Source: an uncultured Thiothrix sp. (GTDB lineage: Bacteria > Pseudomonadota > Gammaproteobacteria > Poriferisulfidales > GCA-002705445). Taken from it: 64,000 nucleotides of DNA. The position numbers and the translations under genes were made by a program. The notes below the pieces were generated by a model. The model made no database searches. It worked only from the letters and a program-made list of their open reading frames with translations, and had not been told where the DNA came from. Shown here one piece after another: positions 17,831-62,591 of the stretch (the stretch's first letter is position 1; every line of letters starts with the position of its first letter). The stretch is taken from positions 3,583 through 67,582 of the forward strand of contig CACJPG010000001.1 in the NCBI GenBank assembly GCA_902595225.1. Reading direction: 5' to 3'.

Positions 17831-18024
17831 TATTATACTTTAGTTTAAATCTACAAATAATTGATTTATATAGTTTATTTTAGTACTTAAGAATTTTATT
17901 ATTTAATAAAATTTCTATAAACAATCTAAATATACATATAAAATATTTCTATAAGACAAATAAGTTTATTCTATTATAATTTATTACTCCACGTTTGTAC
18001 TAAAGATTTTAATCACGGAGTAGT

Positions 18025-20976: not shown

Positions 20977-21668
20977 GATTAGGTTTAGTTGTAGATTTAG
21001 ATAAATGCGTAGGTTGTAATGCCTGTGCTATTGCATGCAAGCAATGGAACACTTCTGGAACTTCTGGCTCACTAACAGACTATAGGCCTTATGGTCCAGA
21101 TCCAAGCGGAGTATTTTTTAATAGAATTCGACATTACGAGACAGGAAATTATCCTGAAAATAAAACAGTGCATTTCCCAATGTCATGTATGCATTGCGAA
21201 GAAGCTGCATGTGTTACTGTGTGCCCAACGGGCGCTTCGTATAAAAGAGAAGAAGATGGAATTGTTTTAGTTGATCCTGAAAAATGTATGGGATGTAACT
21301 ATTGTGCATGGGCATGCCCCTATGGTGCAAGGGAACTCGATCGCGAGGAAGGGATTATGAAAAAGTGCACGTTGTGCGTAGATAGAATATACGATGAAAA
21401 CTTACCTGAATCAGAAAGAAAGCCAGCATGTGTAATGACTTGTCCAACAACCGCAAGATATTTTGGTGATTTTGATGATCCCAACTCAGAAGTGTCGATA
21501 GTTTCAAAAGAAAGAGAGGGACAAGAGTTATTTTCTGAACTAGGCTATAAGCCAGTAAACAAATATTTATCACCACGTAAGAAAGTTGAGATAGAGCAAC
21601 ATGAAATAGTTGAGCCTGATCTTGTTAGAAAAGTTAAAGATTGGGTTAATAAAGTAGTTGAATTGTAA
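20973..21668 (+). CDS. soeB: Four-cluster [4Fe-4S] ferredoxin subunit (DmsB/PsrB family); SoeB-like
   Basis: Cys clusters are CVGCNACAIAC, CMHCEEAACVTVCP, CMGCNYCAWACP and CTLC..CVMTCP. The start overlaps the stop of the catalytic subunit. Confidence 0.7.
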   Translation: MRLGLVVDLDKCVGCNACAIACKQWNTSGTSGSLTDYRPYGPDPSGVFFNRIRHYETGNYPENKTVHFPMSCMHCEEAACVTVCPTGASYKREEDGIVLVDPEKCMGCNYCAWACPYGARELDREEGIMKKCTLCVDRIYDENLPESERKPACVMTCPTTARYFGDFDDPNSEVSIVSKEREGQELFSELGYKPVNKYLSPRKKVEIEQHEIVEPDLVRKVKDWVNKVVEL

Positions 21669-21685
21669 AAATAAGGTAATTATTA

Positions 21686-22639
21686 ATGCACCCAGCATTT
21701 TCAGTCATTTTTTTCACAGTTACGTCAGGAGCAGGATATGGCTTGATGGCACTACTTTGTCTTTTTAATTTTTTATACCTTGGTATGCTTTTTGATAAAA
21801 ATATTTTTTTAATTTTCTCTGGCATAAGTGCAGTTCTTTTTACAATGGGCTTGATATCCTCAACATTTCATCTTGCAAACCCAAAAAATGCTTGGAGAGC
21901 TTTCATGAGATTTAGAACATCATGGCTGGCGAGAGAGGGTTTACTAGCAATTTTATTCTACCCCACACTATTTTTATATTTACTTTTAATACATCTGGAT
22001 TTTTATAAAGATTATTTCCTTTTAATGCAAATATATAGTGTTTTTATCTTCTTTTTTGCAATCTTAATAATATATTGTACTGGTATGATTTATGCGTGTT
22101 TAAAAACTATTCCTCAATGGAACACACCATGGACACCTATAAATTATATAACTATAGGTATTTATTTAGGCGGTTTAATATTTTTCGCATTATTGAGTTT
22201 TAATGATTTTAATATTAATCCATATAAGCCGTTTGTATTAGCCTTGATTTTTGTTGCATTCATAGCAAAGTTTATTTATTACTTAAGTATAAAGGGCCCG
22301 CGACATGAAATCGGTCAAGCAACAAATGCGGCGATTAAACTTAAAAATACAAACGTAAGACTTCTGGATGTAGGCCATACTGGAGGTACTTTTTTAACTG
22401 ATGAATTTGGATACAAAGTAGCAGAGAAAAGATTAAGAAAAATAAAGTGGTTTTCTATTTTTTCAGGATTTTTTATACCTTTTTTCTTAATTTTTTCATA
22501 CAGCTATTTCTTTGAAAATATATTTTTATGCTTATTTGCTGTCTTACTTTCTTTTACTGGCATGATTGCTGAAAGATGGCTATTCTTTGCAGAAGCAAAA
22601 CATGTCGTTAATCTCTATCACGGAGCACAGAAGTGTTAA
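21686..22639 (+). CDS. soeC: DmsC/NrfD-type membrane anchor subunit; SoeC-like
   Basis: It is 317 aa with about 8 hydrophobic helices. The N-terminus MHPAFSVIFFTVTSGAGYG is typical of the DmsC-family anchors I remember. Confidence 0.62.
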   Translation: MHPAFSVIFFTVTSGAGYGLMALLCLFNFLYLGMLFDKNIFLIFSGISAVLFTMGLISSTFHLANPKNAWRAFMRFRTSWLAREGLLAILFYPTLFLYLLLIHLDFYKDYFLLMQIYSVFIFFFAILIIYCTGMIYACLKTIPQWNTPWTPINYITIGIYLGGLIFFALLSFNDFNINPYKPFVLALIFVAFIAKFIYYLSIKGPRHEIGQATNAAIKLKNTNVRLLDVGHTGGTFLTDEFGYKVAEKRLRKIKWFSIFSGFFIPFFLIFSYSYFFENIFLCLFAVLLSFTGMIAERWLFFAEAKHVVNLYHGAQKC

Positions 22640-43815: not shown

Positions 43816-43892
<77 letters not shown>

Positions 43893-43934
43893 ATAGTTCT
43901 TGTAAATCTTTCTTAAGTCCAGTAATTTTAAAAT

Positions 43935-45179
43935 ATGCAAACTTTAAAAACTTTTAGTATTTTTAAATATAGCATTATTGTTTTTCCACTTGCTTTCGCT
44001 GGTATACCAATTTATATTCATGCCCCAGATTATTATTCAACAAATTTAGGAATAAAAATTGAGGCAATAGGAATTTCTCTATTAATATTAAGGCTTTTAG
44101 ATGCTTTTTTAGATCCCTTAATAGGTTATGTGAGTGATAAATTTTTCTATTTAAGAGATAAATTTATCTACATAGGGGCAGCCAATTTGCTACTTGGATT
44201 TTGGATGATATTTCACCCTTTAAATGAAAATATTCTTTTATGGTTTATTCTTAGTGTATTTATATGTACTTTAGGGTTTAGTATGGTAATAATAAATGTT
44301 CAAGCTTTTGGTGGTGTCTGGAACATTCACAAAGAAAAGATTGTGACTGTAATGACAATTCGAGAAGGGATTAGTTTAATTGGACTTTTGATTGCTTCGA
44401 TAACCCCGCCATTACTATACATTTATTTTAAAAACAATAATTTCCATATTCTTTCAATCATTTTAATAGTTCTTACAGCATTATCTTTGATATTTTTTTA
44501 TTCTTGGCATAGAGCTGCTGAAATTAAGAAACCAACAAATAATCAAAAAAATAGGAATTTTAGAAAAATACTGAAAAATCCTAGGGTAAAATTATTTTTT
44601 ACCTCATATTTTTTCAATAGCTTTGCTACATCAATTCCAGCAACAATCATAATATTTTATGTCAGAGATTATTTAAATGCCGAAAGTTATTTGGGTTTAT
44701 TTTTACTTATATATTTTCTTAGCGGGGCTGCCTCAATGCCATTGTGGAAATATTTATCAAATAAATTTTCCAGCATATATTCATGGTTTTTAAGTATGAT
44801 TTTTGCCTTTTTGTCCTTTATTTGGGCATTTTTTCTTGAACCAAACAATATTATTGGTTTCTTCATTATTTGTCTTTTGTCAGGAATAGCTGTTGGAGCG
44901 AATTTAGCACTTCCCTCTGCAATAATTGCAGAAGATATAAACTCGAATAATAATCAAGATTATGCTTCAAGTTATTATTCTATAAGTAATTTTTTATCAA
45001 AATTTGCTTTAGCTATTGCCTCTGGTGTTTCCTTGCCAATTCTTGGTTTTTTGGGATATGTGCCTGGAATCGCTAGAAACGATGTCCTGCTACCTTTTGT
45101 TTATGCGATTTTGCCATGTTGTATACTATTAATCTCAATATATTTAACATCAAAATTACTTAATAAAAGTTCTATTTAA
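43935..45179 (+). CDS. MFS-fold transporter, GPH (glycoside-pentoside-hexuronide:cation symporter)-like
   Basis: It is 414 aa with about 12 TM helices. LRLLDAFLDPLIGYVSDK matches the GPH loop 2-3 signature (R-x-x-D-A-x-x-D-P-x-x-G). Confidence 0.7.
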   Translation: MQTLKTFSIFKYSIIVFPLAFAGIPIYIHAPDYYSTNLGIKIEAIGISLLILRLLDAFLDPLIGYVSDKFFYLRDKFIYIGAANLLLGFWMIFHPLNENILLWFILSVFICTLGFSMVIINVQAFGGVWNIHKEKIVTVMTIREGISLIGLLIASITPPLLYIYFKNNNFHILSIILIVLTALSLIFFYSWHRAAEIKKPTNNQKNRNFRKILKNPRVKLFFTSYFFNSFATSIPATIIIFYVRDYLNAESYLGLFLLIYFLSGAASMPLWKYLSNKFSSIYSWFLSMIFAFLSFIWAFFLEPNNIIGFFIICLLSGIAVGANLALPSAIIAEDINSNNNQDYASSYYSISNFLSKFALAIASGVSLPILGFLGYVPGIARNDVLLPFVYAILPCCILLISIYLTSKLLNKSSI

Positions 45180-45302
45180 CCCTTTATTTATATGCCTTAT
45201 AGAGGATATGTATATTTTATGTATGTATTTTATTGTTCGAAAAAATGTATTACTATATAGATATAAAAATAATATATCTTATACGAAGGTAAATTTATAG
45301 AT

Positions 45303-45332
45303 TTGATGTCTTTACAAAAAAATAGCTATAAT
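45303..45332 (+). promoter_or_regulatory. Candidate sigma70 promoter for the molybdoenzyme pair
   Basis: TTGATG at 45303-45308, an 18-nt spacer, then TATAAT at 45327-45332. This lies about 45 nt upstream of a strong RBS (aaaaggagagg) and the ATG at 45379. Confidence 0.4.
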
Positions 45333-45378
45333 AGATATCATAGTCGTATATTTCTGAGAGTGGAGAAAAGGAGAGGAA

Positions 45379-47625
45379 ATGGCAGCTAAACCAAAAGAAT
45401 TTTCAAGTTCGGTAGTTAATTATGTTCCAAAAATAAAACCACCGGAAGGCCATTCTATACACCATATATGTTGTCCGCATGATTGCCCTGACACGTGCTC
45501 AATGCTTGTAACGAAAAATGACACAACAGGTAAAGCTGTTAGCGTTCAAGGCGATCCATCACATCCAATCACAAGAGGTTATCTATGTAACAAGGTAAAT
45601 CACTACATTGATCTTGTTTACAATGAAAATAGAGTATTGTATCCGCATCGAAGAGTTGGACCAAAGGGCCCTGGTGCGAAATTTGAAAGAATATCATGGG
45701 ATGAAGCCCTTGAAGCAATCACTGACGACTTTAAGAAAACTATAAAAGAATACGGAAGTGAAGCTGTTCAACCTTTCTCGTATTCAGGAACTCTTGGAAT
45801 GCTTGGATATTGGACAATGGACCAAAGATTCTTTAATAAAATGGAAGCTGCACGTCTAGAACAATCAATATGCATATACGCAGCCATGTGGGCTGGTTTA
45901 TATACATACGGCTTATCAAATGGTCCTCATGTTGGTGAAGCAGCACGTGACGGATGTGAGCTAATGATTTTATGGGCAACAAATCTTGTGAGTACTGGCG
46001 TACATTCAATACCTTTCATTAGAGAAGCAAAAGAAAGGGGTATGAAATTAGTTGTTGTAGATCCAAGAAAAACTAGAACAACTATGTTTGCAGATGTACA
46101 TATTCAACCTAAGCCCGGAACTGATGCGTTCTTAGCAAACGCAATGATAAAAGTAATTGTTGATAATAACTTACATGATGTTGATTTCTTAAATGAACAA
46201 ACACATGGTTGGGAGGAGTTTGTTGAAAAAGTTCTACCAGACTATACTCTAGAAGAGGCTGAGAAAATTACTGGCGTTAAGGCTAAAGATATTGAAGATC
46301 TAGCTATTGAGTATGCAAAAACAAAAAAATCTTATATAAGAGCAAACTACGGATTAAATAGACACCAAAATTCGGGGCAAATGTGTAGAGCAGTTCTTAT
46401 TTTACCTTGCTTTAACGGTTCATGGAGAGAAGAAAAATGTGGTGGAGTTGCTTTTGGCCAACTTGAAGAAATGTGGTTACGTTTTGATCTCGGAAAATTA
46501 CATAGACCTGATCTCGGGAATAGAGCAGAAAAAAGAATTGTGAATATGGTTCAGATTGGAAGAGCGCTCGCAGATAATATTGGTGATGATGGCGCCCAAT
46601 TAGATCCACCGATAAAAACACTGTTTGTTTATAATAGCGATATCGCAAACTGCACTCCAAACTCAGGAAATGTAAGAAAAGGCATGATGAGAGATGATTT
46701 ATTCATAACTGTGCACGAAACTTTCTGGACAGACTCATGTATGTACGCTGACATTATTCTCCCTGCAGACACTGCACTAGAGAGAACAGATTGTCACTGG
46801 GCATATGGCTCATGGTTTTTAGGTATAAATAAACCAGTTATTGAGCCGCTAGGTGAGAGTATAAATAACACCGAATTATTTAGAATGCTTGCTGATAAAA
46901 TGGGCTATGTTGACTCTACTGATAATGCTTTCACGCAAACAGATGAAGAAATTATTAAAGATATTCTTTTAGAGGCAGAAAATGAAGACGGCGAAAGATT
47001 TAATTGCTTAACTGAAGGCATAGATTACGATGATGTGGTTAAAAATGGTTGGGCAAGAGCTTCAACAGGATCAAAAAGAAGAGATTTTCTGAAAAATGGT
47101 TGGCCAACTCCTAGCGGAAAGATTGAGATTAAATGTGAAGCAATAACTGCGGAATACCCTGATGTTAGCCCTTTTCCAGAGTATGTACCCGAAATTAATG
47201 GACAGTACGATCCAAATAAAGAAAAATTTCCAATCCAAGTGTTGAGTAGCGCTTCTCACTATTTCATTGGAGATTCTTTTCAATCTGTTCCAAGATTACA
47301 AGCAATGCAATCTAGACCAACAGTTGAAATAAGTCTTGGTGATGCAAAAGCAAGAGGAATTGAAGATGGCGATTTGGTAAGATTATATAATGATAATGGT
47401 GAAACATATTGCTATGCTGTCTTAATCGAAGGTTTATTAGATGGTGTTTGCGCAACGCAAAAACAATTTAAAGGAAGTAATACACCTGGGGGTTTAAATG
47501 TAAATAATTTAAACTCTGAAATGTTGACTGACTTTGGCAAAAGTCCAACATTTTACTCAGTTCTAGTTGAAATAGAAAAAGCTAGTGAAGAGATGACAAA
47601 AAAAGCTATTAAGCAAGGAGTGTAA
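45379..47625 (+). CDS. Cytoplasmic molybdopterin (MopB superfamily) oxidoreductase of unassigned subfamily
   Basis: It is 748 aa with no Tat or Sec leader. The N-terminal Fe-S motif is CPHDCPDTC...LCNK (C-x3-C-x3-C-xn-C). It shows MopB-like blocks (ISWDEALE, VVVDPRKTRT, PKPGTDAFLA) and a C-terminal beta-barrel region (LRLYNDNGE). Confidence 0.75.
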   Translation: MAAKPKEFSSSVVNYVPKIKPPEGHSIHHICCPHDCPDTCSMLVTKNDTTGKAVSVQGDPSHPITRGYLCNKVNHYIDLVYNENRVLYPHRRVGPKGPGAKFERISWDEALEAITDDFKKTIKEYGSEAVQPFSYSGTLGMLGYWTMDQRFFNKMEAARLEQSICIYAAMWAGLYTYGLSNGPHVGEAARDGCELMILWATNLVSTGVHSIPFIREAKERGMKLVVVDPRKTRTTMFADVHIQPKPGTDAFLANAMIKVIVDNNLHDVDFLNEQTHGWEEFVEKVLPDYTLEEAEKITGVKAKDIEDLAIEYAKTKKSYIRANYGLNRHQNSGQMCRAVLILPCFNGSWREEKCGGVAFGQLEEMWLRFDLGKLHRPDLGNRAEKRIVNMVQIGRALADNIGDDGAQLDPPIKTLFVYNSDIANCTPNSGNVRKGMMRDDLFITVHETFWTDSCMYADIILPADTALERTDCHWAYGSWFLGINKPVIEPLGESINNTELFRMLADKMGYVDSTDNAFTQTDEEIIKDILLEAENEDGERFNCLTEGIDYDDVVKNGWARASTGSKRRDFLKNGWPTPSGKIEIKCEAITAEYPDVSPFPEYVPEINGQYDPNKEKFPIQVLSSASHYFIGDSFQSVPRLQAMQSRPTVEISLGDAKARGIEDGDLVRLYNDNGETYCYAVLIEGLLDGVCATQKQFKGSNTPGGLNVNNLNSEMLTDFGKSPTFYSVLVEIEKASEEMTKKAIKQGV

Positions 47626-48765
47626 ATGGCGTCAAGAAGTGATTTTATATATCCAAATAACGGAGTCCCTCATAGCGAAACAAAAGTAGCGTCCGCGCCT
47701 CATCCTGATGTTCAGAACAGTAGAGTTAAAATAAAAGATGCTGTAATAACATCTATGGAAAATCTTACACATGACACTTTTTTACTTACAGTTAAGCTAG
47801 ATAATAATGAATACTTAGAATCACATGCAGGGCAGTATGGAACTCTTAAAGTTGACGATCTAGACAAACCTCGAGCATTTTCATTTGCGAGGGGACCGAA
47901 TAGCGAAAAAAAAGGTGAATTCAGTTTTTTTATTAAACAGGTTCCTGGTGGTTTATTTTCAGAATATTTAAATGAAGATAGGACTGGTCAAAAAATTGTT
48001 TTATCTGGACCTATGGGGCAATTTAAAATTGACGAGTCAAACGAAGATATGGTTTGCATAGCTGGTGGAAGCGGTATGAGCGCGATAAATGCAATAGTTG
48101 AAGAAGCTGCTCATAGTCAAGTAAAAAGAAACTGCTATTTCTTTTATGGTGCCAGACAACAGAAAGATTTATACCTTGTTGATGAAATTTCAGCTATTGA
48201 AAAAAAATGGGCCAAAGGTTTCACTTTTAAATTTATACCTGTTTTGAGTGAAGAGCCCGATGATTCTGATTGGGAAGGTGGAAGAGGTTTCGTTACAGAT
48301 TTTTTTAAAGAAAATTTTTTAAAAACTGGCATAGTGAAAGCCGAATCATGCAAAGCTTTCTTTTGTGGTCCTCCTCCAATGATTGATGCTGGAGCAAAAG
48401 TTCTTAAAGAAGCGGGCGTCTCAGAAGAGTCAATGTTTTTTGATAAGTTTGAGGATGCGAGATCACCTGCACCTGTTATTGATAATTCTAAATGCGTTCT
48501 TTGTGATGAATGTTTATTAGTTAAGCCAACTGCAGACTGTATAGTGGAGACAGCAAAACTTGGAGATGTAAAAGAAAATGGTAAATTCGCAGATATCAAA
48601 AGAATTGATCCAGCATTTACTTCAGGTTTGTATTATAACACATTGTATATTAACGAAGATAAATGTATAAGATGTTATGCATGCGTTCATGCATGCCCTC
48701 ATAAAGCGATATCACCAAATTATGATTTGGAACCAAAAACTCTAAGAAATATTGTTGAGAATTAA
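47626..48765 (+). CDS. FNR-family FAD/NAD(P)H oxidoreductase fused to a C-terminal 2x[4Fe-4S] ferredoxin domain
   Basis: It has the FAD motif RAFSFA, the NAD(P)H motif GGSGMSA and FFCGPPPM. The ferredoxin part has CVLCDEC...C and CIRCYACVHACP. It starts at the base after the Mo-subunit stop. Confidence 0.75.
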   Translation: MASRSDFIYPNNGVPHSETKVASAPHPDVQNSRVKIKDAVITSMENLTHDTFLLTVKLDNNEYLESHAGQYGTLKVDDLDKPRAFSFARGPNSEKKGEFSFFIKQVPGGLFSEYLNEDRTGQKIVLSGPMGQFKIDESNEDMVCIAGGSGMSAINAIVEEAAHSQVKRNCYFFYGARQQKDLYLVDEISAIEKKWAKGFTFKFIPVLSEEPDDSDWEGGRGFVTDFFKENFLKTGIVKAESCKAFFCGPPPMIDAGAKVLKEAGVSEESMFFDKFEDARSPAPVIDNSKCVLCDECLLVKPTADCIVETAKLGDVKENGKFADIKRIDPAFTSGLYYNTLYINEDKCIRCYACVHACPHKAISPNYDLEPKTLRNIVEN

Positions 48766-48816
48766 AAAATATCTTACAATAATCGAATAATATAATAATA
48801 ACGAGGAGCGAACTCA

Positions 48817-50022
48817 ATGAACGAAGCAAATACCGCTTGGATACTTGTATCCACAGCATTAGTACTATTTATGACACTTCCTGGATTAGCATTATTTTAT
48901 GCAGGTCTTGTTGGTTCAAAAAACACATTATCTACTTTAGCGCAATGTCTAGTTATAGCGTGCTTGGCATCAATTATTTGGTTTGTATGTGGTTATTCAA
49001 TAGCATTCAATGGCGACGGATTGTATTTTGGAAATTTAGAAAAAATGTTTTTATCTGGAATAAACATTGAGTCTTTATCAGGAGATATTCCAGAAACGCT
49101 TTTTGTAATGTTTCAAATGACATTTGCAATAATTACTCCAGCTTTGGTAGTTGGGGCGTATGTTGAAAGAATTAAATTCTCTGCTGTTATTTTAATAACT
49201 GCAATATGGCTAGTACTTGTATATAGCCCAGTGACTCATTGGGTATGGGGTGGAGGATGGCTTGCTAATCTTGGAGTAATGGATTTTGCTGGCGGGTTAG
49301 TTGTGCATACAACAGCTGGAATATCGGCATTAGTTATAGCAAAAGCTCTTGGTAATAGAACAGGTTTCCCTAATTCTGTAAAACCACCACATAGTCCAGT
49401 TATTGCAATGGTTGGAGCCTCAATGCTTTGGGTTGGCTGGTTTGGATTTAATGCGGGATCAGCACTTTCTGCAAGCCAATCTGCCGGAATGGCTATGTTA
49501 GTAACTCATATATCTGCTGCTGCAGCAACTTTAACTTGGATGTTTATAGATTGGTATAAAAATGGCAAACCTGGTCTTGTTGGTATGATTACGGGGATGA
49601 TTGCTGGCTTAGCTACAGTAACTCCGGCGTCAGGCTTTATTGGTCCATTCGGCGGCTTAATCCTTGGAATTTCATCAGGTATTGTATGCTATTGGTTTGT
49701 TGGATTTATAAAAAATGTTTTAAGTATTGATGATTCCCTTGACGTTTTTGCAGTTCACGGTGTTGGCGGAATACTAGGTACTCTTTTATGTGGTGTTCTT
49801 GCATCAAGCACATTCGGTGGTTTAGGCCTTGACGGAGATATTTGGTCGCAAACAAAGGTTCAAGTTCTAGGGATTGTTAGCATTAGTGTTTATACTCTTA
49901 TAGCAACTTCTGTAATTGTATATTTTGTTAATAGTTTAGTTGGTTTAAGGGTATCTGAACAAGAAGAAAATACTGAAGGTTGTGACTTTGGAACACACGG
50001 TGAGAGTAGCTATCATTTGTAA
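48817..50022 (+). CDS. amtB: Ammonium transporter (Amt family)
   Basis: It has NTAWILVSTALVLFMTLPGLALFYAG, DFAGGLVVHTTAG and FAVHGVGGILGTLL. Confidence 0.93.
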   Translation: MNEANTAWILVSTALVLFMTLPGLALFYAGLVGSKNTLSTLAQCLVIACLASIIWFVCGYSIAFNGDGLYFGNLEKMFLSGINIESLSGDIPETLFVMFQMTFAIITPALVVGAYVERIKFSAVILITAIWLVLVYSPVTHWVWGGGWLANLGVMDFAGGLVVHTTAGISALVIAKALGNRTGFPNSVKPPHSPVIAMVGASMLWVGWFGFNAGSALSASQSAGMAMLVTHISAAAATLTWMFIDWYKNGKPGLVGMITGMIAGLATVTPASGFIGPFGGLILGISSGIVCYWFVGFIKNVLSIDDSLDVFAVHGVGGILGTLLCGVLASSTFGGLGLDGDIWSQTKVQVLGIVSISVYTLIATSVIVYFVNSLVGLRVSEQEENTEGCDFGTHGESSYHL

Positions 50023-51624: not shown

Positions 51625-51855
51625 ATGGCCGAGTATGACCAAGAATTAGATGCTTGTGGACTAAATTGTCCATTACCAATTTTAAGGGCAAAAAAATCAT
51701 TATCTACTATGGAAACAGGGCAAATATTGCATGTAGTAGCTACAGATCCTGGGGCGATAAAAGATTTTGAGGCATTTTCTAATCAAACAGGGAACAAACT
51801 TATGGACTCAAAAGAGGATAGCGGTAAATTTTACTTTTTAATTCAAAAAGCTTAA
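51625..51855 (+). CDS. TusA-family sulfurtransferase
   Basis: It is 76 aa. LDACGLNCPLPILRAKKSL contains the CPxP active-site motif, and HVVATDPGAIKDFEAF fits as well. Confidence 0.82.
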   Translation: MAEYDQELDACGLNCPLPILRAKKSLSTMETGQILHVVATDPGAIKDFEAFSNQTGNKLMDSKEDSGKFYFLIQKA

Positions 51856-57619: not shown

Positions 57620-58067
57620 GTCAAGATATTACGATAAAATTGAACTTTTAAAAGCTCTAAATGTTGATATTTGGTTAAAAAAACCTAATTTTCCTAAAAT
57701 AAAAAAAAATATAATAATACAAACCTTACTTTTTGAAAAACACAAAGGCATTATTGAAAGTTTTATAAAAAGCATAAGAAATTTAGAGATCGATACCACA
57801 GTAAAAAAACTAGAAAATGATGATTTGGTAGATATTGTAAATTCAAATCAAGAAAAAAATAAAAAGTGTAATTTTTTTATAGTATGTCAAAAAGAAGTTA
57901 TGAATGAAATGATAGATAAAAATTTAAAAAAATCAGATAATGTTTATGTTAATGAAACTAAAGATATGATTTTTGTATTTAATACTCTTTTTGAATCAGA
58001 TAAAATATCTAATGATATGAAAAAATCAGTATGGAAAGATCTAATTTATTCTTTAAGTTATGAGTAG
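57606..58067 (+). CDS. Hypothetical protein; possible DNA polymerase III psi subunit (HolD-like) by position
   Basis: It is 153 aa, lies immediately upstream of rimI and overlaps it (the holD-rimI pairing known in E. coli and Pseudomonas). LLKALNVDIWLKKP loosely resembles the LQQLGITQWSLRRP start of E. coli psi. Confidence 0.35.
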   Translation: MTEIESRYYDKIELLKALNVDIWLKKPNFPKIKKNIIIQTLLFEKHKGIIESFIKSIRNLEIDTTVKKLENDDLVDIVNSNQEKNKKCNFFIVCQKEVMNEMIDKNLKKSDNVYVNETKDMIFVFNTLFESDKISNDMKKSVWKDLIYSLSYE

Positions 58068-58530
58068 TATTCAAAATTCTTTACTAGTAAATTTCTCAGA
58101 AATGAGTGAGAAAGATATTGTAGATGTCCTCGCTATTGAGCAAGAGTCATATGGTTATCCGTGGTCAGAGAAAATTTTTTATGATTGTATAAATAATAAT
58201 TATTTATGCAGAGTACTCACTCTGGATGATAACCTTATTGGATATTTAATATCTTCACTAGTTCAAGATGAATGCCATATTATGAATCTATGTGTAAAAA
58301 AAGAATACAGAAACTTTGGTTATGGAAAATTAATTCTGAATGAGTTACATAAAGAACTATTTGAGCTCAAGTGTAAAATTATATTTTTAGAATGTAGACC
58401 TAGCAATAATAGTGCTTTAAAACTATATCAGTCTTTAGGTTATAATGAGATTGGAAAAAGAAGAAACTATTATCCTGCCCCAAATGGTTACGAAGATGCT
58501 ATTATTCTTGCAAAAGATATCAAAAAATAA
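58060..58530 (+). CDS. rimI: Ribosomal-protein-alanine N-acetyltransferase
   Basis: It has the GNAT motif A (NLCVKKEYRNFGYGKLIL) and the C-terminal ALKLYQSLGYNEIGKRRNYY. Confidence 0.85.
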   Translation: MSSIQNSLLVNFSEMSEKDIVDVLAIEQESYGYPWSEKIFYDCINNNYLCRVLTLDDNLIGYLISSLVQDECHIMNLCVKKEYRNFGYGKLILNELHKELFELKCKIIFLECRPSNNSALKLYQSLGYNEIGKRRNYYPAPNGYEDAIILAKDIKK

Positions 58531-58537
58531 ACTAAAA

Positions 58538-58711
58538 ATGAAAGATGTAATATTTAGTGTTTTGTCTAGTTTTATTGGCATACAATCTAATAAAAATAGA
58601 GAAAGAGATTTTAAATCCAGTTCGGCTTATTATTTTATTTTTTTTGGCCTTGCAATTACTTTAATATTTATTATTTTTTTATATATTTTTGTGAACTTTA
58701 TACTTCTATAA
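58538..58711 (+). CDS. DUF2970-like small membrane protein
   Basis: I trimmed the start to the ATG at 58538. SVLSSFIGIQSNKNRERDF followed by one TM helix matches the DUF2970 pattern I recall. Confidence 0.55.
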   Translation: MKDVIFSVLSSFIGIQSNKNRERDFKSSSAYYFIFFGLAITLIFIIFLYIFVNFILL

Positions 58712-61130
58712 GCTTAATTTCATCATCATCACTTCTTTCAATTGAAAACTTGGTTTTATTTTCTATATGCATATTTATCTCATCTATATAGGTTTTTAAA
58801 TTTTCAATTATTGGCTCAAAATCGTCTCTTGAAAAAGATATTCTTTTTGTAGTATTTTTAGATATATTTATAAAATAATATTCGAAAAGTTCAACATCTG
58901 GCTCAATAAGAGCGTAGAATGGTAACTGAAGATGATCCCCATCCATTATAGATTTTTTTGATGGTAAATTTGACGATACTTTAAAGTCAACAATCGCTAC
59001 TTGGCCATTCATTTTATACTTCAGATCATATCTTCCAACAAGCTTGATATTATTGTATATACGAGAAATAGACCTCTCTGGCCTAAAATCACTTCTAAGA
59101 ATATCTTCAGAATTACAAAATACTTCTTTAGCAACTTCTGGAATTAATTTTTTCCACAACTCAATTTCGTATGGAATGTCGTTACTGAGATAAAATTTAT
59201 CTTCTAGATCTTCAGTTAATGATATTAAAGCTTCTATTACTAATTTTTCATCTTTATTATTTCCAATTTTCTCTGCTGTATTTTTTAATATAGAATGTAT
59301 ATATGTTCCAAAAATTAAATATTTATTGCTAACCCTAGAAAAACTTTCAGGAAATTTTTTTCCTTTATAAAAACTGTATAAGCAATCTCTAAAATTTTCA
59401 ATATCTTTATAATTTAGCTTTTTAAAAGTATTATCTAGACATATATAATCAATTAATTTATTTCTTAAAATTAAAGGTTTTTTATCAGGAATTTTATTTT
59501 TAACAACTTTTTTATTAAGAATATTATCAGCTACTAGTTTAAATTTAGATTTAGAAAAAATTTCACTATTATCATTTTTGTGAAACGAAAGACAAATACT
59601 ATTTGAAAATTTTGAAATTTGAAAAAAATCACTGATCGTTTCCTTTTCGAGAACATTTGACGAAATACTTAGCTCTGAAAATATTGTATTCTTTTCTGAA
59701 AAGTTATTTATAATTTTTTTAGGATAGTTCTTGTTTGACATTGAGCATATATATATTTTGTCAAAATTATTAATTAATGCTTGTTGTATATTAGTATAAG
59801 TTACCTTACTATTGTTTTTGTTAGAAAAGGTGTTTTTTTCTAATTTTCTCCTAATAATTTTACACCATTCATTAATATTTTTTTCTTGATTAAAAGAATT
59901 TATATTAATAAATTCTAAAATTCTCAAAAATTCCTTGCCAGCCGAATCATTGGTAATTATTTCGTATGATTTAAAATCTTTTAACTTATTTTCAATAAAA
60001 TTTTTAATATTATTAAAACTACATCTATCTTCTAAATTAGTGTTGGATTCAAAATATTCATCAAAGAATTTATTTTTATTTTTAAAATTAACTATATTAA
60101 TATTTATGTTACCTTTTTGATGTAACACTATTTTTTCTAATAATTTATTTTTTTCATGATTGCTCATTTTAATTTGAAAGTAGGGTGACTTTAATATGTC
60201 TCTTAGCGAAGAATAACTATTATCCTCAAAAAAATAATTCATAATATTGTTTATATAGCTACAGCATGAACTTGTTGATAAAACCCAACCGCTATCATCA
60301 TTTACATCTATATTATTTCTTGCGAGTAATGCACGAAGTCTCCTGGCAAAGTATCTATCATTTGTGATTAGCCCTATATTTTTTATTTTTTCATTTTTAT
60401 TTTGAATACATATATCATTTGCTAAAAATGATAATTCGTCCTCATGAGAAAAAAAATCATATGAATTGTATTTTTCCATATCAATGTCACTAATATCATT
60501 TTCTGCTTTTAATTGAAAATTTACATTTTTATATCTTAAGACATTTGGAATATTTTTATTAATCCACAGTCTTTCAATTTCATAAAAGTCTTGGATATTG
60601 ATAACATGATGTATTGCATCTGAAAATAAAGTAAAATTTTCTTTAAGAAGACTTATATATTTATTAATATAAGATTCCTCGTCAATTGTATATTTCATCC
60701 ATAATTTAATAACTTCTAAAAAGATTTTTGATTCATAAGACAATACATTTTTCTCAAGATATTTTATTTTCTCTAAGACATTTTTTTCATCGGAATTATG
60801 TATTTCATTGTTTACTATTACTTGATTGATACTTTCATAAATATTTTCTATTTCATCTATATAGTTATATTTACTAAGAAAGGATTGTGTTTTGGTGAGT
60901 ATATTTTCTAAAAAAATTAAATCTTTATTTCTATAGAATCCAACTTCCTCGCTATTTAAGTGAAAAATATATTCATCAGGTGTGTATATTTTGAGATTTT
61001 TATTATTAACCTTTTCTAACGATGAATATAAAAATCTTTTAGAAATATTTTTATTGGCTATTATTACGTGTCTTCTTTCTTTATTTTTATCTATTTCTAA
61101 TGAGATTTTTTTTATAATTGAATGACCCAT
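58698..61130 (-). CDS. AddB-like PD-(D/E)XK nuclease family DNA repair protein (no Walker A seen)
   Basis: It is 810 aa. NIGLITNDRYFARRLRALLARNNIDVNDDSGWVLSTSS resembles the AddB core motif (vTpDr.LARRv...L.r.gI.v.DSaG..L). The C-terminal nuclease motif is GRYDLKYKMNGQVAIVDFKVSS...HLQLPFYALI. Confidence 0.6.
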   Translation of the reverse strand: MGHSIIKKISLEIDKNKERRHVIIANKNISKRFLYSSLEKVNNKNLKIYTPDEYIFHLNSEEVGFYRNKDLIFLENILTKTQSFLSKYNYIDEIENIYESINQVIVNNEIHNSDEKNVLEKIKYLEKNVLSYESKIFLEVIKLWMKYTIDEESYINKYISLLKENFTLFSDAIHHVINIQDFYEIERLWINKNIPNVLRYKNVNFQLKAENDISDIDMEKYNSYDFFSHEDELSFLANDICIQNKNEKIKNIGLITNDRYFARRLRALLARNNIDVNDDSGWVLSTSSCCSYINNIMNYFFEDNSYSSLRDILKSPYFQIKMSNHEKNKLLEKIVLHQKGNININIVNFKNKNKFFDEYFESNTNLEDRCSFNNIKNFIENKLKDFKSYEIITNDSAGKEFLRILEFININSFNQEKNINEWCKIIRRKLEKNTFSNKNNSKVTYTNIQQALINNFDKIYICSMSNKNYPKKIINNFSEKNTIFSELSISSNVLEKETISDFFQISKFSNSICLSFHKNDNSEIFSKSKFKLVADNILNKKVVKNKIPDKKPLILRNKLIDYICLDNTFKKLNYKDIENFRDCLYSFYKGKKFPESFSRVSNKYLIFGTYIHSILKNTAEKIGNNKDEKLVIEALISLTEDLEDKFYLSNDIPYEIELWKKLIPEVAKEVFCNSEDILRSDFRPERSISRIYNNIKLVGRYDLKYKMNGQVAIVDFKVSSNLPSKKSIMDGDHLQLPFYALIEPDVELFEYYFINISKNTTKRISFSRDDFEPIIENLKTYIDEINMHIENKTKFSIERSDDDEIKLIEV

Positions 61131-61205
61131 ATTTTTGTATATATTGCTTGTTAATGTATTTTATTATATAAAATATCATAGTTTTACTATTATTTTGAGT
61201 TCGAT

Positions 61206-61601
61206 ATGTCTGTCATAAATTTTCAAGAATACAAAGCTCGTTTAGAAAAGCCAAATTATACATCAGAGCCAAAACCTGGTAGGAATTTATATAAAAAAAA
61301 TCTTATAGAAAAAAGAATGTTTTTTGATAAGAATATGCGTGATTACATAAATAATCCCTATATTGAAAAATGTAAATTTTCTTTAAATGAGTGTATTGTA
61401 AAATTTAGCTCGAGAGATCTTCAGACTGACTTCTTGCTAATTTTACAGGATTATTCTCCTGAGGAATTTGATTCAAATTTTGCGACGTGGGAATTTTGTA
61501 TTTATAACATTTCAAACGAAGAGTATATTGATTCAAGGTTTTTTACTTCTTCAGAGATGGCTATTAAATACTTTATTTCAAAGATTAAATACTCTATATA
61601 A
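61206..61601 (+). CDS. Hypothetical protein (131 aa, ORFan by eye)
   Basis: A clean ORF. I recognise no motif. Confidence 0.4.
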   Translation: MSVINFQEYKARLEKPNYTSEPKPGRNLYKKNLIEKRMFFDKNMRDYINNPYIEKCKFSLNECIVKFSSRDLQTDFLLILQDYSPEEFDSNFATWEFCIYNISNEEYIDSRFFTSSEMAIKYFISKIKYSI

Positions 61602-61609
61602 ATTTAGAT

Positions 61610-62089
61610 ATGAAAACCAAACGACTCACAATCTTTTTGCTCTTTTTTGCTTCCCAGGTTATTGCATCAGATGATTTGAATGGAACAAACTTATTTTGTG
61701 AAGAACATAATTTGTTTGTAACATACAATTTTCTGGATAACAAAAGATACCAAACTACTAATTATTTTCTTGTTCATTTTGATATCGGAATCCGAGAAGG
61801 TACATATGGTTATTTAAATAATCCTAGATACCTTTATTTAAAAGCTGATAAAAAATTAGTAATATATAATAAGTTAAACAAAACTGATAATGAGAAAAAC
61901 TGGAAGAAGAAAGTCGTAGAAGTCCCAAAGCTTGACTACTACTTAGATACAGAAGATTTGTATATTACTTTTTCACCTGGCAAACACTCTATGATAAAAA
62001 GCTCATGTAAACTTTTTGACGGAACAGCAGACGAGTTACGAGAAAGTAGTTTAAAAAAGTATCTTAAAAACTTCGATAATGATAATTAA
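61610..62089 (+). CDS. Hypothetical secreted protein (159 aa)
   Basis: It has the signal peptide MKTKRLTIFLLFFASQVIA and starts 8 nt after the preceding ORF. I recognise no motif. Confidence 0.45.
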   Translation: MKTKRLTIFLLFFASQVIASDDLNGTNLFCEEHNLFVTYNFLDNKRYQTTNYFLVHFDIGIREGTYGYLNNPRYLYLKADKKLVIYNKLNKTDNEKNWKKKVVEVPKLDYYLDTEDLYITFSPGKHSMIKSSCKLFDGTADELRESSLKKYLKNFDNDN

Positions 62090-62239
62090 TAGAGCTTTTG
62101 ACGAATTAAAATAATATATGAAATGCTAAATTTAACTTTTTAGGTCTTAATTAGGCTTACTGTTTGGTCTACCATTTGATCTACCATACCTTTTAGTAAT
62201 TAAATAGTAGCTACTAATCAATACTATAGAAGGGTGTAT

Positions 62240-62591
62240 GGTGGAGGCGGCGGGGATCGAACCCGCGTCCGCAAATCCTCTGCCTTCGGTACTACATGTT
62301 TAGCTTCGTTATCAAAATTCATGAAAATAAAGTAAACGAGCAGACATTTATTCTCACTATCCAATTAAGTTTCGCAGATATTCTAATGGCGAGAATAAAA
62401 GCTATCTTGTGTTAAGCGACACCAAACTGAAATGCACAAGCACGTTTCTGAATGATGACCAGCAGGATTAAGCTGCTAGTGCGTAGTTGTCTTCGTTTGC
62501 AACTATAATTTATAGCATTTTTTACGAGAATAGCTATATACTCGACATGCACCTAGGGTTTTGCAATCCACGTCGAATCCAGATCGCCCCC
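62240..62591 (-). ncRNA. ssrA: tmRNA (SsrA), tag peptide ANEDNYALAA
   Basis: The minus strand begins GGGGGCGATCTGGATTCGACGTGGATT... (62591 downward). It ends ...GGTTCGATCCCCGCCGCCTCCACCA at 62240. The tag ORF gca aac gaa gac aac tac gca cta gca gct taa occupies 62500..62468. Confidence 0.95.

What the first reader, a model, noticed from the sequence alone, without database searches (positions are those of the whole stretch)
45303..48765. Orphan soluble molybdoenzyme with a dedicated FNR-ferredoxin fusion reductase, flanked by a GPH/MFS transporter and amtB
A 748-aa MopB-superfamily protein has no export signal and an unusual C-x3-C-x3-C Fe-S motif (CPHDCPDTC). The next base after its stop begins a 379-aa protein that combines an FNR-type FAD/NAD(P)H module (RAFSFA, GGSGMSA, CGPPPM) with a C-terminal 2x[4Fe-4S] ferredoxin (CVLCDEC.., CIRCYACVHACP). 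That gives a self-contained wire from NAD(P)H to FAD to Fe-S to Mo. It implies a cytoplasmic two-component reductase, or NAD(P)+-linked dehydrogenase, whose substrate I cannot assign. It does not look like NasA/NarB (C-x2-C-x3-C) with NasC/NasB-type partners, nor like FdhF, BisC or TorA. The pair has its own promoter-like TTGATG-18-TATAAT and the strongest RBS I noticed in the window. Upstream is a GPH-type symporter and downstream an ammonium transporter, which hints at a nitrogen- or osmolyte-related substrate such as an N-oxide or oxyanion.
Basis: partly seen in the sequence, partly recalled or inferred. Interest (0 to 1): 0.72.

Follow-up and report, generated by a model that had tools for sequence, protein, structure and literature searches.

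The report
Orphan soluble NAD(P)H-linked molybdoenzyme pair
Two back-to-back genes encode a cytoplasmic molybdenum enzyme and its own NAD(P)H-flavin-ferredoxin electron supplier; the pair is real, conserved and common in marine bacteria, belongs to a branch of the DMSO-reductase superfamily that nobody has characterised, and its substrate is still unknown.

Summary
ORF 45379-47625 (748 aa) is a complete MopB/DMSO-reductase-superfamily catalytic subunit with no export signal. ORF 47626-48765 (379 aa) starts on the base after its stop and fuses an FNR-type FAD/NAD(P)H module to a 2x[4Fe-4S] ferredoxin domain.

The pairing is conserved in 13 of 13 related loci (Mo subunit at least 65% identical), in about seven different genomic backgrounds. 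Two other branches of the same family carry different NAD(P)H-flavoprotein plus ferredoxin solutions. That strongly supports an NAD(P)H -> flavin -> Fe-S -> Mo wire.

- The C-x3-C-x3-C motif is the normal DmsA spacing.
- The promoter match is at chance level and is not conserved.
- The MFS transporter and amtB are lineage-specific insertions at a tRNA-Lys hot spot, so they say nothing about substrate.

The Mo ligand position holds an invariant Cys (C165). No curated family model reaches its cut-off. All solved MopB structures are about equally distant (at most 22% identity), and E. coli DmsA is the nearest characterised sequence (28%).

I read the pair as a self-contained NAD(P)H-driven reductase of an uncharacterised clade. 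The substrate is unassigned; my best guess is a small diffusible S-/N-oxide or oxyanion. Interest is moderate.

The parts
45379..47625 (+). Catalytic subunit: cytoplasmic Mo/W-bis-pyranopterin-guanine-dinucleotide (MopB) protein, 748 aa
   Evidence: ORF. Three Pfam domains above cut-off. AF2 model has pLDDT 93.7 and pTM 0.93. Foldseek places the fold in MopB, TM 0.73-0.79 to all classes. Relatives are 56-100% identical in many marine metagenomes.
45472..45588 (+). FS0 [4Fe-4S] motif: C32-x3-C36-x3-C40 ... C70, with K72
   Evidence: The four Cys are invariant across 60-72 family sequences. They align with E. coli FdhF C8/C11/C15/C42 and K44. The spacing equals that of E. coli DmsA.
45871..45873 (+). 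Cys165, predicted protein ligand of Mo
   Evidence: Invariant in the whole family. In an L-INS-i alignment it falls in the column of FdhF Sec140 and the first Ser of DmsA 'DYSS', where the DmsA Mo-ligand Ser lies (its residue number is from my own knowledge). It aligns with the Cys of the SoeA-like protein in this window. The ligand role is inferred, not shown.
47626..48765 (+). Electron-transfer partner, 379 aa: FNR-type FAD/NAD(P)H module fused to a C-terminal 2x[4Fe-4S] ferredoxin domain
   Evidence: ORF, Pfam. Immediately downstream of the Mo gene in 13/13 loci whose Mo subunit is at least 65% identical. Translationally coupled: TAA then ATG.
47728..48456 (+). FNR module (aa 35-277) with RxF/YS, GGSGMSA and CGPPPM motifs
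   Evidence: Motif residues are invariant or nearly so. Modelled at pLDDT 84-95. Nearest structures are NADH-oxidising reductases CarAd, NqrF, GcoB and BenC.
48478..48714 (+). Ferredoxin domain (aa 285-363): C290-x2-C293-x2-C296-x8-C305 and C347-x2-C350-x2-C353-x3-C357-P
   Evidence: Eight Cys are invariant. The domain is homologous (45-51% identity) to the C-terminal domain of the GltD-like partner in the sister clade. The AF2 model is low confidence here (pLDDT 46-63).
45368..45373 (+). Shine-Dalgarno AAGGAG, 5 nt before the ATG of the Mo gene
   Evidence: Read directly from the sequence. Conserved in L008 and L087.
47615..47620 (+). Shine-Dalgarno AAGGAG for the partner gene, inside the 3' end of the Mo gene
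   Evidence: Read directly from the sequence.
45303..45332 (+). Promoter-like TTGATG-18-TATAAT (doubtful; listed because the finding starts here)
   Evidence: Found by the scan, but such matches are not above the shuffle expectation. The segment is absent or not conserved in L008.
43816..43892 (+). tRNA-Lys(UUU) marking the upstream edge of the variable slot that holds the pair (context, not a functional part)
   Evidence: The same tRNA precedes the pair in L008, L087 and L001.

Best explanation
The two genes encode a self-contained, cytoplasmic, two-subunit oxidoreductase. It belongs to an uncharacterised clade of the DMSO-reductase (Mo/W-bisPGD, MopB) superfamily.

Proposed electron path:
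1. NAD(P)H, probably NADH, reduces the FAD of the FNR module of the 379-aa subunit.
2. Single electrons pass through that subunit's two [4Fe-4S] clusters.
3. They reach the FS0 [4Fe-4S] cluster (C32/C36/C40/C70) of the 748-aa subunit.
4. They arrive at a Mo-bisPGD centre ligated by Cys165, which reduces a small substrate in the cytoplasm, most likely by removing an oxygen atom.

Shown: the domain content, the conservation of every cofactor-binding residue, the strict gene pairing, and the lack of an export signal.

Inferred: the direction of electron flow (about 0.65-0.7 reductive), the metal and cofactor content, and the physical complex.

Substrate: not determined. The cassette travels without a conserved transporter, regulator or downstream enzyme. 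The nearest characterised sequence is DmsA. I therefore commit to a small, membrane-permeant or endogenously formed oxidised compound. My first choice is an S- or N-oxide such as DMSO, TMAO or free methionine sulfoxide (about 0.25). Inorganic sulfur species come second (about 0.15).
For: Anatomy: Pfam domains; invariant FS0 Cys, K72 and C165 across 72 sequences; 8 invariant Cys plus FAD/NAD motifs in the partner; confident MopB fold, pLDDT 93.7.

Pairing: the FNR-Fd gene lies directly downstream in 13/13 loci with at least 65% Mo identity. These include Hyphomicrobium methylovorum and a Candidatus Oxydemutatoraceae MAG, in about 7 different backbones. Stop and start codons abut, and an SD lies inside the upstream gene.

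Independent reinvention of the wire:
- The 51-53% clade has a GltD-like (Fer4_20 + Pyr_redox_2) flavoprotein fused to a homologous ferredoxin domain just upstream.
- The 36-38% plasmid, ICE and alphaproteobacterial members have Mo, a separate 2x[4Fe-4S] ferredoxin, an FAD-dependent pyridine-nucleotide oxidoreductase and MoaA or MoeA.

Direction: the nearest relatives of the FNR module are all NADH-oxidising electron donors. The residue after the Cys is Ile, not the His of formate dehydrogenases.

Self-containment: in L087 the pair sits alone between tRNA-Lys and the M48 peptidase gene. Related cassettes are bracketed by IS6 elements or lie inside an ICE-like region.

DmsA affinity: the best NCBIfam hit is dmsA_ynfE, aligned full length. 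BLAST gives 28% identity and 182 bits to E. coli DmsA, against 132 to FdhF and 120-122 to Cldh/Dodh. The FS0 spacing is identical to DmsA.
Against: - No biochemical datum exists for any member of the clade.
- Every S-/N-oxide reductase of this superfamily that I know to be characterised uses a Ser ligand. Here the position is an invariant Cys, which is typical of nitrate, formate, arsenic and sulfur-compound enzymes and of acetylene hydratase. This is from my own knowledge of the family.
- Profile and fold searches put the family about equally far from FdhF, acetylene hydratase, MtsZ, PsrA and DMSO reductase. The DmsA affinity is therefore weak.
- FNR-type modules can run in either direction.
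- The ferredoxin domain is modelled at low confidence, and no complex model could be made.
- NADH versus NADPH preference was not resolved.
Confidence: 0.6

Rival explanations
1. Inorganic sulfur-compound reductase. NAD(P)H-driven reduction of thiosulfate, polysulfide/S0 or tetrathionate in the cytoplasm of sulfur-oxidising bacteria, for sulfide supply or for handling stored sulfur.
For: A Cys ligand is typical of PsrA, PhsA, TtrA and SoeA. C165 aligns with the Cys of the SoeA-like protein in this window. PhsA and PsrA match the family full length. The host encodes SQR, SoeABC-like proteins and TusA. L001 has YeeE and SoxY beside the pair. Hyphomicrobium has FCSD, a persulfide-dioxygenase-like gene and TauE within 10 kb. 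Low-potential 2x[4Fe-4S] clusters would suit low-potential sulfur couples.
Against: In L001, YeeE lies on the far side of the tRNA-Lys gene, outside the unit. TusA belongs to the conserved backbone, not to the cassette. Many contexts carry no sulfur genes. PhsA scores 152 bits against a cut-off of 694. Thiosulfate reduction by NAD(P)H is thermodynamically uphill (my own knowledge).
Confidence: 0.15
2. Reductive dehydroxylase or another transformation of an organic (phenolic) substrate, like the soluble Gordonibacter catechol dehydroxylases Cldh and Dodh.
For: Cldh and Dodh lack a Tat signal, are small, pair with a small 4Fe-4S protein and sit next to MFS transporters (PMC7028382). That is the same anatomy as here, including the MFS gene in this window. 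The paper's alignment of dehydroxylase homologues contains three CPHDCPDTC sequences, at least two of them from Azoarcus. Acetylene hydratase is the top PDB hit by phmmer. A Streptomyces plasmid homologue lies in a biosynthetic-looking cluster. Tat-bearing relatives at 32-35% identity are from Eggerthellaceae. AraC regulators accompany the mobile cassettes.
Against: The window protein is only 23-24% identical (120-122 bits) to Cldh and Dodh, less than to E. coli DmsA or FdhF. The genetically implicated homologues (CC-1065, Thauera AR-1) have a different C-x2-C-x3-C motif. The MFS neighbour is not conserved. No aromatic-catabolic genes occur in any of the marine loci.
Confidence: 0.12
3. NAD(P)+-reducing dehydrogenase. 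The wire runs backwards and a low-potential substrate (formate, sulfite, another oxyanion precursor) is oxidised at Mo.
For: FNR modules are reversible. The best profile hits in the PDB are cytoplasmic FdhF-type formate dehydrogenases (396 and 386 bits). R337 aligns with FdhF R333. Hyphomicrobium is a methylotroph that needs formate oxidation (my own knowledge).
Against: The Sec/Cys-His dyad of formate dehydrogenases is absent: C165 is followed by Ile. The Fdh-alpha model scores 233 against a cut-off of 666. The Arg is also present in DmsA, so it is not diagnostic. The genome already has a SoeABC-like sulfite dehydrogenase. The closest relatives of the FNR module are NADH oxidisers.
Confidence: 0.12
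4. Unconventional NAD(P)H-dependent assimilatory nitrate reductase.
For: Cytoplasmic, Cys-ligated, with FS0 and an NAD(P)H-flavoprotein partner. That is the logic of NasA/NasC and NasC/NasB. amtB lies next door in this window. D. desulfuricans NapA gives the lowest rmsd (3.4-3.5 A) and a TM of 0.79/0.82.
Against: NasC scores 194 against 1100, haloarchaeal NasA 99 against 1000, and NapA 98 against 904. The FS0 spacing differs from the C-x2-C-x3-C of Nas, NarB and Nap. No nitrite reductase or nitrate transporter gene appears in any of the seven annotated places (six distinct) whose genes are listed with Pfam families. The other related loci were not annotated for these genes. amtB is conserved only in L008.
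Confidence: 0.07
5. Non-redox enzyme (hydratase, like acetylene hydratase) whose partner only keeps the metal in the reduced, active state.
For: Acetylene hydratase is the best single-sequence PDB hit. It shares the Cys ligand. Invariant acidic residues D35 and D38 sit in the FS0 motif, near where acetylene hydratase has its catalytic Asp13.
Against: Three separate lineages invested in a stoichiometric, translationally coupled NAD(P)H reductase. That is hard to justify for occasional reactivation. In the alignment Asp13 of acetylene hydratase pairs with P37, not with an Asp. Identity is about 21%.
Confidence: 0.04

Closest known systems
E. coli DmsA / YnfE-F (DMSO/selenate reductase A subunits, TIGR02166)
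   Same: This is the highest-scoring curated model, aligned over the full length. It is the nearest characterised sequence by BLAST, 28% identity and 182 bits. The C-x3-C-x3-C FS0 spacing is identical, and the Arg equivalent to R337 is shared.
   Different: The score is 255 against a cut-off of 778. The ligand position holds Cys, not Ser. There is no Tat signal, no DmsB four-cluster subunit and no DmsC anchor. Electrons come from NAD(P)H through a flavoprotein, not from quinol.
NAD(P)H-dependent assimilatory nitrate reductases (NasC/NasB of Bacillus, NasA/NasC of Klebsiella) and the ferredoxin-dependent NarB
   Same: The operating logic is the same: a cytoplasmic Cys-ligated Mo-bisPGD enzyme with FS0, fed by NAD(P)H through a dedicated flavoprotein or by ferredoxin.
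   Different: The curated models are failed by 5- to 10-fold. The FS0 spacing is different. The partner is FNR plus 2x[4Fe-4S] rather than a NirB-type flavoprotein with [2Fe-2S]. No linkage to nitrite reductase or nitrate transport was seen.
Soluble catechol dehydroxylases Cldh/Dodh of Gordonibacter, and the wider acetylene-hydratase-related bis-MGD group (Maini Rekdal et al. 2020, PMC7028382)
   Same: They have no Tat signal, a small catalytic subunit, a partner 4Fe-4S protein and an MFS transporter next door. CPHDCPDTC-type sequences were included in that paper's homologue tree.
   Different: Identity is only 23-24%. Cldh and Dodh lack the first FS0 Cys. No NAD(P)H flavoprotein partner is described for them. 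The hosts are anaerobic gut bacteria, not oxic-ocean bacteria.
Acetylene hydratase (PDB 2e7z)
   Same: It is the best PDB hit by single-sequence phmmer, 1.6e-40. It is cytoplasmic, has a Cys ligand, carries FS0 and is of similar size.
   Different: Identity is about 21%. It is a non-redox enzyme without a reductase partner. Its catalytic Asp is not conserved in register.
FNR-type reductase components of oxygenases (BenC, AntC, MmoC, CarAd) and NqrF; BoxA of benzoyl-CoA oxygenase
   Same: The FAD_binding_6 + NAD_binding_1 module matches them at E 1e-31 to 1e-42 and by fold. BoxA also combines two [4Fe-4S] clusters with an FNR module (my own knowledge, not tested).
   Different: Those reductases carry an N-terminal plant-type [2Fe-2S] domain. 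Here the Fe-S domain is C-terminal and of the 2x[4Fe-4S] type. BoxA has the opposite domain order. None of them is known to serve a molybdoenzyme.

Membership tests
DMSO-reductase / MopB superfamily (Mo/W-bisPGD enzymes) | Molybdopterin (PF00384) and Molydop_binding (PF01568) domains in the four-domain fold | tested here: met
   Pfam scores 108.9 and 53.2 bits, above cut-offs. AF2 model pLDDT 93.7. TM 0.73-0.79 to more than 50 MopB structures.
DMSO-reductase / MopB superfamily (Mo/W-bisPGD enzymes) | N-terminal four-Cys FS0 [4Fe-4S] motif with the following Lys | tested here: met
   C32, C36, C40 and C70 are invariant. K72 is invariant or nearly so. They align with the FdhF cluster Cys and K44.
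DMSO-reductase / MopB superfamily (Mo/W-bisPGD enzymes) | Actual binding of Mo (or W) bis-PGD | not testable with these tools
   Needs metal and cofactor analysis of purified protein.
Assimilatory nitrate reductase (NasC / NasA / NarB) | Score above the curated equivalog cut-off | tested here: not met
   NF047855 scores 194 against 1100. NF041323 scores 99 against 1000.
Assimilatory nitrate reductase (NasC / NasA / NarB) | Genomic linkage to nitrite reductase and/or nitrate transporter | tested here: not met
   No such gene is listed in the Pfam-annotated neighbourhoods L001-L006, L087 and L088, nor among the window ORFs that were scanned. The GTDB-derived loci L007-L011 were not annotated for these genes, so the test covers only part of the loci.
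Formate dehydrogenase (FdhF type) | Sec/Cys ligand immediately followed by His; score above the TIGR01591 cut-off | tested here: not met
   C165 is followed by I166. The score is 233 against 666. The Arg333 equivalent (R337) is present but is shared with DmsA.
S-/N-oxide reductases (DmsA/YnfE; BisC/TorA/DorA) | Ser ligand to Mo | tested here: not met
   Cys occupies the aligned column of the DmsA Ser.
S-/N-oxide reductases (DmsA/YnfE; BisC/TorA/DorA) | Score above the curated subfamily cut-offs | tested here: not met
   TIGR02166 scores 255 against 778. TIGR00509 scores 184 against 1018. TorA scores 130-137 against 909-1465.
S-/N-oxide reductases (DmsA/YnfE; BisC/TorA/DorA) | DmsA-type FS0 spacing C-x3-C-x3-C | tested here: met
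   CPHDCPDTC here against CTVNCGSRC in DmsA.
Thiosulfate / polysulfide reductase (PhsA / PsrA) | Tat export, four-cluster B subunit, membrane C subunit; score above cut-off | tested here: not met
   No RR motif. The partner is an FNR-Fd fusion. PhsA scores 152 against 694. The Cys ligand is shared.
Catechol dehydroxylase group (Dadh/Cadh/Hcdh; Cldh/Dodh) | Closer in sequence to the dehydroxylases and acetylene hydratase than to other characterised bis-MGD enzymes (the criterion used in PMC7028382) | tested here: inconclusive
   Acetylene hydratase is the top PDB hit by phmmer but not by profile. Cldh and Dodh score 120-122 bits, below DmsA at 182 and FdhF at 132. CPHDCPDTC sequences do appear in the paper's tree.
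Acetylene hydratase | Catalytic Asp next to the second FS0 Cys; no physiological redox partner | tested here: not met
   Asp13 aligns with P37. A dedicated reductase gene is strictly linked.
FNR-family flavoprotein (partner subunit) | FAD_binding_6 + NAD_binding_1 domains with RxYS, GxGxxP-like and CGPxxM motifs | tested here: met
   Pfam scores 49.9 and 68.2 bits. R83, S86, G147-S152 and C247-P250 are invariant. The fold matches CarAd, NqrF and BenC.
BenC/MmoC-type oxygenase reductases | N-terminal plant-type [2Fe-2S] ferredoxin domain; score above the equivalog cut-off | tested here: not met
   No Fer2 domain. The matches cover only the flavin/NAD part. BenC scores 145 against 430.

The most novel reading that the evidence does not exclude
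The pair is the founding member of a large, ocean-abundant and partly mobile clade of Cys-ligated Mo-bisPGD enzymes. The clade has the 'CPHDCPD' motif, with at least 589 confirmed genome matches. Under this reading it performs a reaction not yet assigned to any molybdoenzyme with an NAD(P)H-ferredoxin feed. One example would be the soluble NADH-dependent DMSO (or dimethylsulfone) reductase activity long reported in Hyphomicrobium extracts, whose gene, as far as I know, has not been identified. That would give a cytoplasmic route for DMSO-to-DMS conversion in oxic seawater.
Probability: 0.15. Interest if true: 0.8.

Novelty: new variant of a known kind. Interest (0 to 1): 0.58.

Why it matters
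Streamlined marine bacteria with genomes of about 1.5-2 Mb must keep the costly molybdenum-cofactor pathway to use this enzyme. They also conserve it at 70-95% identity across lineages, so the reaction is probably ecologically important. Relatives travel as complete cassettes (regulator, enzyme, ferredoxin, reductase, cofactor-synthesis gene) on plasmids, ICE-like regions and between IS6 copies. That points to a single-step trait that is useful on its own.

Assigning the substrate would annotate thousands of 'molybdopterin-dependent oxidoreductase' entries. Depending on the answer, it would add a cytoplasmic step to the marine sulfur, nitrogen or organic-matter cycles. The FNR plus 2x[4Fe-4S] fusion would also be a compact, genetically portable way to drive a molybdoenzyme from NAD(P)H.

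Tried and rejected
- Neighbourhood inference of the substrate. ORFs from 86 loci were clustered. Outside the reductase partners, no family recurs next to the Mo gene. My gene calls in high-G+C loci were poor.
- The Hyphomicrobium upstream ABC transporter matches only generic Liv/Urt-type models below cut-off. Its binding protein matches nothing.
- L014 looked like an N-terminal fusion, but that was ORF over-extension.
- Rfam found no riboswitch, including no Moco riboswitch, near the pair.
- No Moco-biosynthesis or molybdate-transport genes were found among the window ORFs that were scanned.
- Literature searches for SUP05/Thioglobus molybdoenzymes, dimethylsulfone or NADH-DMSO reductase, the CPHDCPD motif and SSN studies found no characterisation of this clade. 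Wells 2020 and Barnum & Coates 2022 held nothing relevant.
- Source names for relatives are all generic.
- Foldseek and a PDB profile search could not place the family next to any one class.
- Sulfite dehydrogenase as a specific idea was put aside, because the window already encodes a SoeABC-like enzyme.
- The promoter claim was rejected.

Full report
OBSERVATION

The first, 45379-47625 (+, 748 aa), carries the three Pfam domains of a MopB catalytic subunit, all above gathering scores. These are Molybdop_Fe4S4 (aa 32-82), Molybdopterin (85-506) and Molydop_binding (628-728). Its N-terminus has no twin-arginine motif and no hydrophobic leader. The first Fe-S cysteine is residue 32, so the protein is cytoplasmic.

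The second, 47626-48765 (+, 379 aa), has FAD_binding_6 (39-134), NAD_binding_1 (145-255) and a C-terminal Fer4 region. The TAA stop of the first gene is followed directly by the ATG of the second. An AAGGAG Shine-Dalgarno sits inside the end of the first gene, and another AAGGAG lies 5 nt before the first ATG.

The TTGATG-18-TATAAT promoter is found. In this 30% G+C DNA, however, such matches are no more common than in shuffled sequence (22 against 27.7 +/- 4.4). The segment is not conserved in the closest relative, where a different upstream block is shared.

IS THE PAIR REAL AND CONSERVED?

The Mo subunit has thousands of relatives, many from marine metagenomes including Tara. None carries more than a generic name. 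A conserved core family is 56-79% identical across gamma- and alphaproteobacteria.

In every locus where the Mo subunit is at least 65% identical (13 loci, about seven different backbones), the FNR-ferredoxin gene lies immediately downstream. These loci include a cultured Hyphomicrobium methylovorum and a Candidatus Oxydemutatoraceae MAG.

The neighbours are not conserved:
- The MFS and amtB genes recur only in L008, the 92% relative.
- In L087 the pair sits alone between tRNA-Lys and an M48 peptidase gene.
- In L001 the same slot also holds YeeE, which lies before the tRNA and so outside the unit, and SoxY.
- Elsewhere the pair lies between dinB-like and TraB-like genes, or next to YCII.

The backbone tolQRAB-pal-ybgF-queE-queC-tRNALys-[slot]-M48-tusA-ilvIHC is shared by the window, L001 and L087. 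The transporter and amtB are therefore lineage-specific cargo at a variable slot. They are not functional partners.

THE WIRE IS REINVENTED THREE TIMES

This is the strongest argument for how the system works. In the clade whose Mo subunit is 51-53% identical (L012, L013, L017), the gene just upstream encodes a GltD-like NAD(P)H flavoprotein (Fer4_20 + Pyr_redox_2). Its C-terminal domain is homologous (45-51% identity, same eight Cys) to the ferredoxin domain of the window partner.

In Agrobacterium, Allorhizobium, Rhodopseudomonas, Bradyrhizobium, Thioclava and Methylophaga (36-38% identity), the Mo gene is followed by three genes. These are a separate 2x[4Fe-4S] ferredoxin, an FAD-dependent pyridine-nucleotide oxidoreductase, and MoaA or MoeA.

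So three non-orthologous NAD(P)H flavoproteins are each joined to a two-cluster ferredoxin and each linked to the same Mo-enzyme family. This shows that the enzyme is fed from, or feeds, the pyridine-nucleotide pool through ferredoxin-type clusters. Some of these cassettes are mobile. One is bracketed by two IS6 transposases on a Thioclava plasmid, and another lies inside an ICE-like region of a Methylophaga plasmid, with an AraC regulator in several cases.

THE CATALYTIC SUBUNIT

Across 60-72 sequences down to 28% identity, the invariant residues are C32, C36, C40 and C70 (FS0), C165, R85, W199, D249, P462 and E468.

In a careful alignment, C165 falls in the column of Sec140 of E. coli FdhF and of the first Ser in the 'DYSS' stretch of E. 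coli DmsA, where the DmsA Mo-ligand Ser lies by my own knowledge. It also aligns with the Cys of the SoeA-like protein encoded elsewhere in this window. The metal is therefore predicted to be Cys-ligated. The next residue is Ile, not the His that follows Sec/Cys in formate dehydrogenases. R337 aligns with FdhF R333 but also with an Arg of DmsA, so it is not diagnostic.

The AlphaFold model is confident (pLDDT 93.7). Foldseek puts it about equally far from every solved MopB class (TM 0.73-0.79, at most 22% identity). NapA of D. desulfuricans and FdhF superpose best, and DMSO reductases have the best E-values. A family profile searched against PDB sequences gives FdhF-type enzymes, acetylene hydratase, MtsZ and PsrA within 10% of each other in score.

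No NCBIfam model comes near its cut-off. The best is dmsA_ynfE, 255 against 778. By BLAST the nearest characterised protein is E. coli DmsA (28%, 182 bits). This is a separate, deep clade.

THE PARTNER

The FAD and NAD motifs and all eight ferredoxin cysteines are invariant in 42 sequences. The FNR module is modelled confidently. Its nearest structures are NADH-oxidising electron donors: CarAd, NqrF, GcoB, BenC and T4moF. That mildly favours NADH as donor and the reductive direction. The ferredoxin domain is modelled poorly, as expected without its clusters.

WHAT IS KNOWN

Maini Rekdal et al. (eLife 2020, PMC7028382) described catechol dehydroxylases as part of a large, mostly uncharacterised bis-MGD group related to acetylene hydratase.

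The soluble Gordonibacter enzymes Cldh and Dodh have no Tat signal, a small 4Fe-4S partner and an MFS neighbour. That is the same anatomy as here. The paper's alignment of homologues contains three CPHDCPDTC sequences, at least two of them from Azoarcus.

I extracted Cldh and Dodh from the supplement. They are only 23-24% identical (120-122 bits) to the window protein, less than DmsA or FdhF. The genetically implicated homologues (CC-1065 cluster, Thauera AR-1) have a C-x2-C-x3-C motif. The wider group has therefore been sighted, but this clade and its NAD(P)H partner have not been characterised. Membership of the dehydroxylase family is not established.

Relatives with Tat signals at 32-35% identity are from Eggerthellaceae. 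One relative is fused to a DmsB-like four-cluster domain. A Streptomyces plasmid homologue lies in a biosynthetic-looking cluster. The broad family is probably functionally diverse.

MECHANISM AND SUBSTRATE

I commit to the following path. NAD(P)H reduces FAD. Electrons then pass through two [4Fe-4S] clusters to FS0 and on to Mo(Cys165), which reduces a cytoplasmic substrate.

The reductive direction (about 0.65-0.7) rests on three points:
- the relatives of the FNR module are NADH oxidisers;
- the formate-dehydrogenase signature is absent;
- a SoeABC-like sulfite dehydrogenase is already present in the window.

The substrate is not determined. Nitrate assimilation is unlikely. The Nas models fail. 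No nitrite reductase or nitrate transporter is listed in any of the seven places (six distinct) that came with Pfam-annotated genes; the remaining loci were not annotated for these genes.

The cassette travels alone, so I favour a small compound that needs no dedicated transporter and whose product needs no further enzyme. An S- or N-oxide fits this and fits the DmsA affinity. From my own memory, NADH-dependent DMSO reductase activity was reported in Hyphomicrobium (De Bont et al. 1981). That paper is cited in PMC13352529, but the activity itself was not verified here. The invariant Cys ligand speaks against the idea, because known S-/N-oxide reductases use Ser.

Sulfur species are the second option. 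The evidence is the Cys ligand, the sulfur-oxidiser hosts with SQR, SoeABC and TusA, and the YeeE and SoxY genes nearby in L001. A phenolic dehydroxylation is third.

VERDICT

The thing is a genuine, conserved, uncharacterised two-component molybdoenzyme: a new variant of a known kind, the NAD(P)H-linked soluble Mo-bisPGD oxidoreductases. Interest is moderate (0.58). It would be higher if the substrate proves to be DMSO or another abundant marine compound.

Noticed in passing
window 15026-22639: A sulfur-oxidation cluster: a type III sulfide:quinone reductase-like gene (15026-16153, NCBIfam 297 bits, below the 525 cut-off), a peroxiredoxin (17216-17830), and a SoeABC-like cytoplasmic sulfite dehydrogenase. 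The latter consists of a 983-aa MopB protein (18025-20976), a Fer4_11 protein (20973-21668) and a DmsC-like anchor (21686-22639). The orphan enzyme is therefore not the only molybdoenzyme of this genome.
   Followed up: partly
window 43816-50022; L001, L008, L087: The stretch between queC/tRNA-Lys(UUU) and the M48 peptidase gene is a variable slot. It holds the pair alone in L087. It holds MFS plus pair plus amtB in the window and L008. It holds the pair plus SoxY in L001, with YeeE before the tRNA. The backbone on both sides is syntenic even though L001 is 60% G+C and the window is 30%.
   Followed up: partly
window 51625-51855: A 76-aa TusA-family ORF with a CGLNCPLP motif lies between the M48 peptidase and ilvI. 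It falls below the usual ORF length filters. It is conserved at the same place in L001 and L087.
   Followed up: partly
L096 (Thioclava plasmid p4), L095 (Methylophaga pinxianii plasmid), L094 (A. vitis pAtS4e): Relatives at 36-38% identity form a complete cassette: AraC regulator, Mo enzyme, ferredoxin, FAD oxidoreductase, and MoaA or MoeA. The cassette is bracketed by two IS6 transposases in Thioclava and lies within an ICE-like region in Methylophaga. That suggests a horizontally traded single-step trait.
   Followed up: partly
L012 8275-9987, L013 3164-4834, L017 7241-8995: A GltD-like flavoprotein (Fer4_20 + Pyr_redox_2) is fused to a C-terminal 2x[4Fe-4S] domain homologous to that of the window partner. 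It overlaps the start of the Mo gene. The architecture resembles dihydropyrimidine dehydrogenase without its FMN domain.
   Followed up: partly
L005 10001-12712 (Hyphomicrobium methylovorum): Two tandem FNR-ferredoxin paralogues (374 and 394 aa; 56% and 48% identical to the window partner) follow the Mo gene. A Liv/Urt-type ABC transporter and a 111-aa unknown protein precede it on the same strand. The role of the second reductase is unexplained.
   Followed up: no
It could be the real promoter or an operator.
   Followed up: no
P0356 (877 aa), P0272/P0305: One distant family member is fused at its C-terminus to a DmsB-like four-cluster ferredoxin domain. Others, from Eggerthellaceae, carry classical twin-arginine signals. 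The broad family thus spans cytoplasmic and exported forms.
   Followed up: partly
window 58000-62000: G+C drops to 24% here (the window average is about 31%). The region holds an 810-aa PD-(D/E)XK nuclease-family ORF on the minus strand (58698-61130) and lies next to the tmRNA gene (62239-62591), so it may be an integrated element.
   Followed up: no
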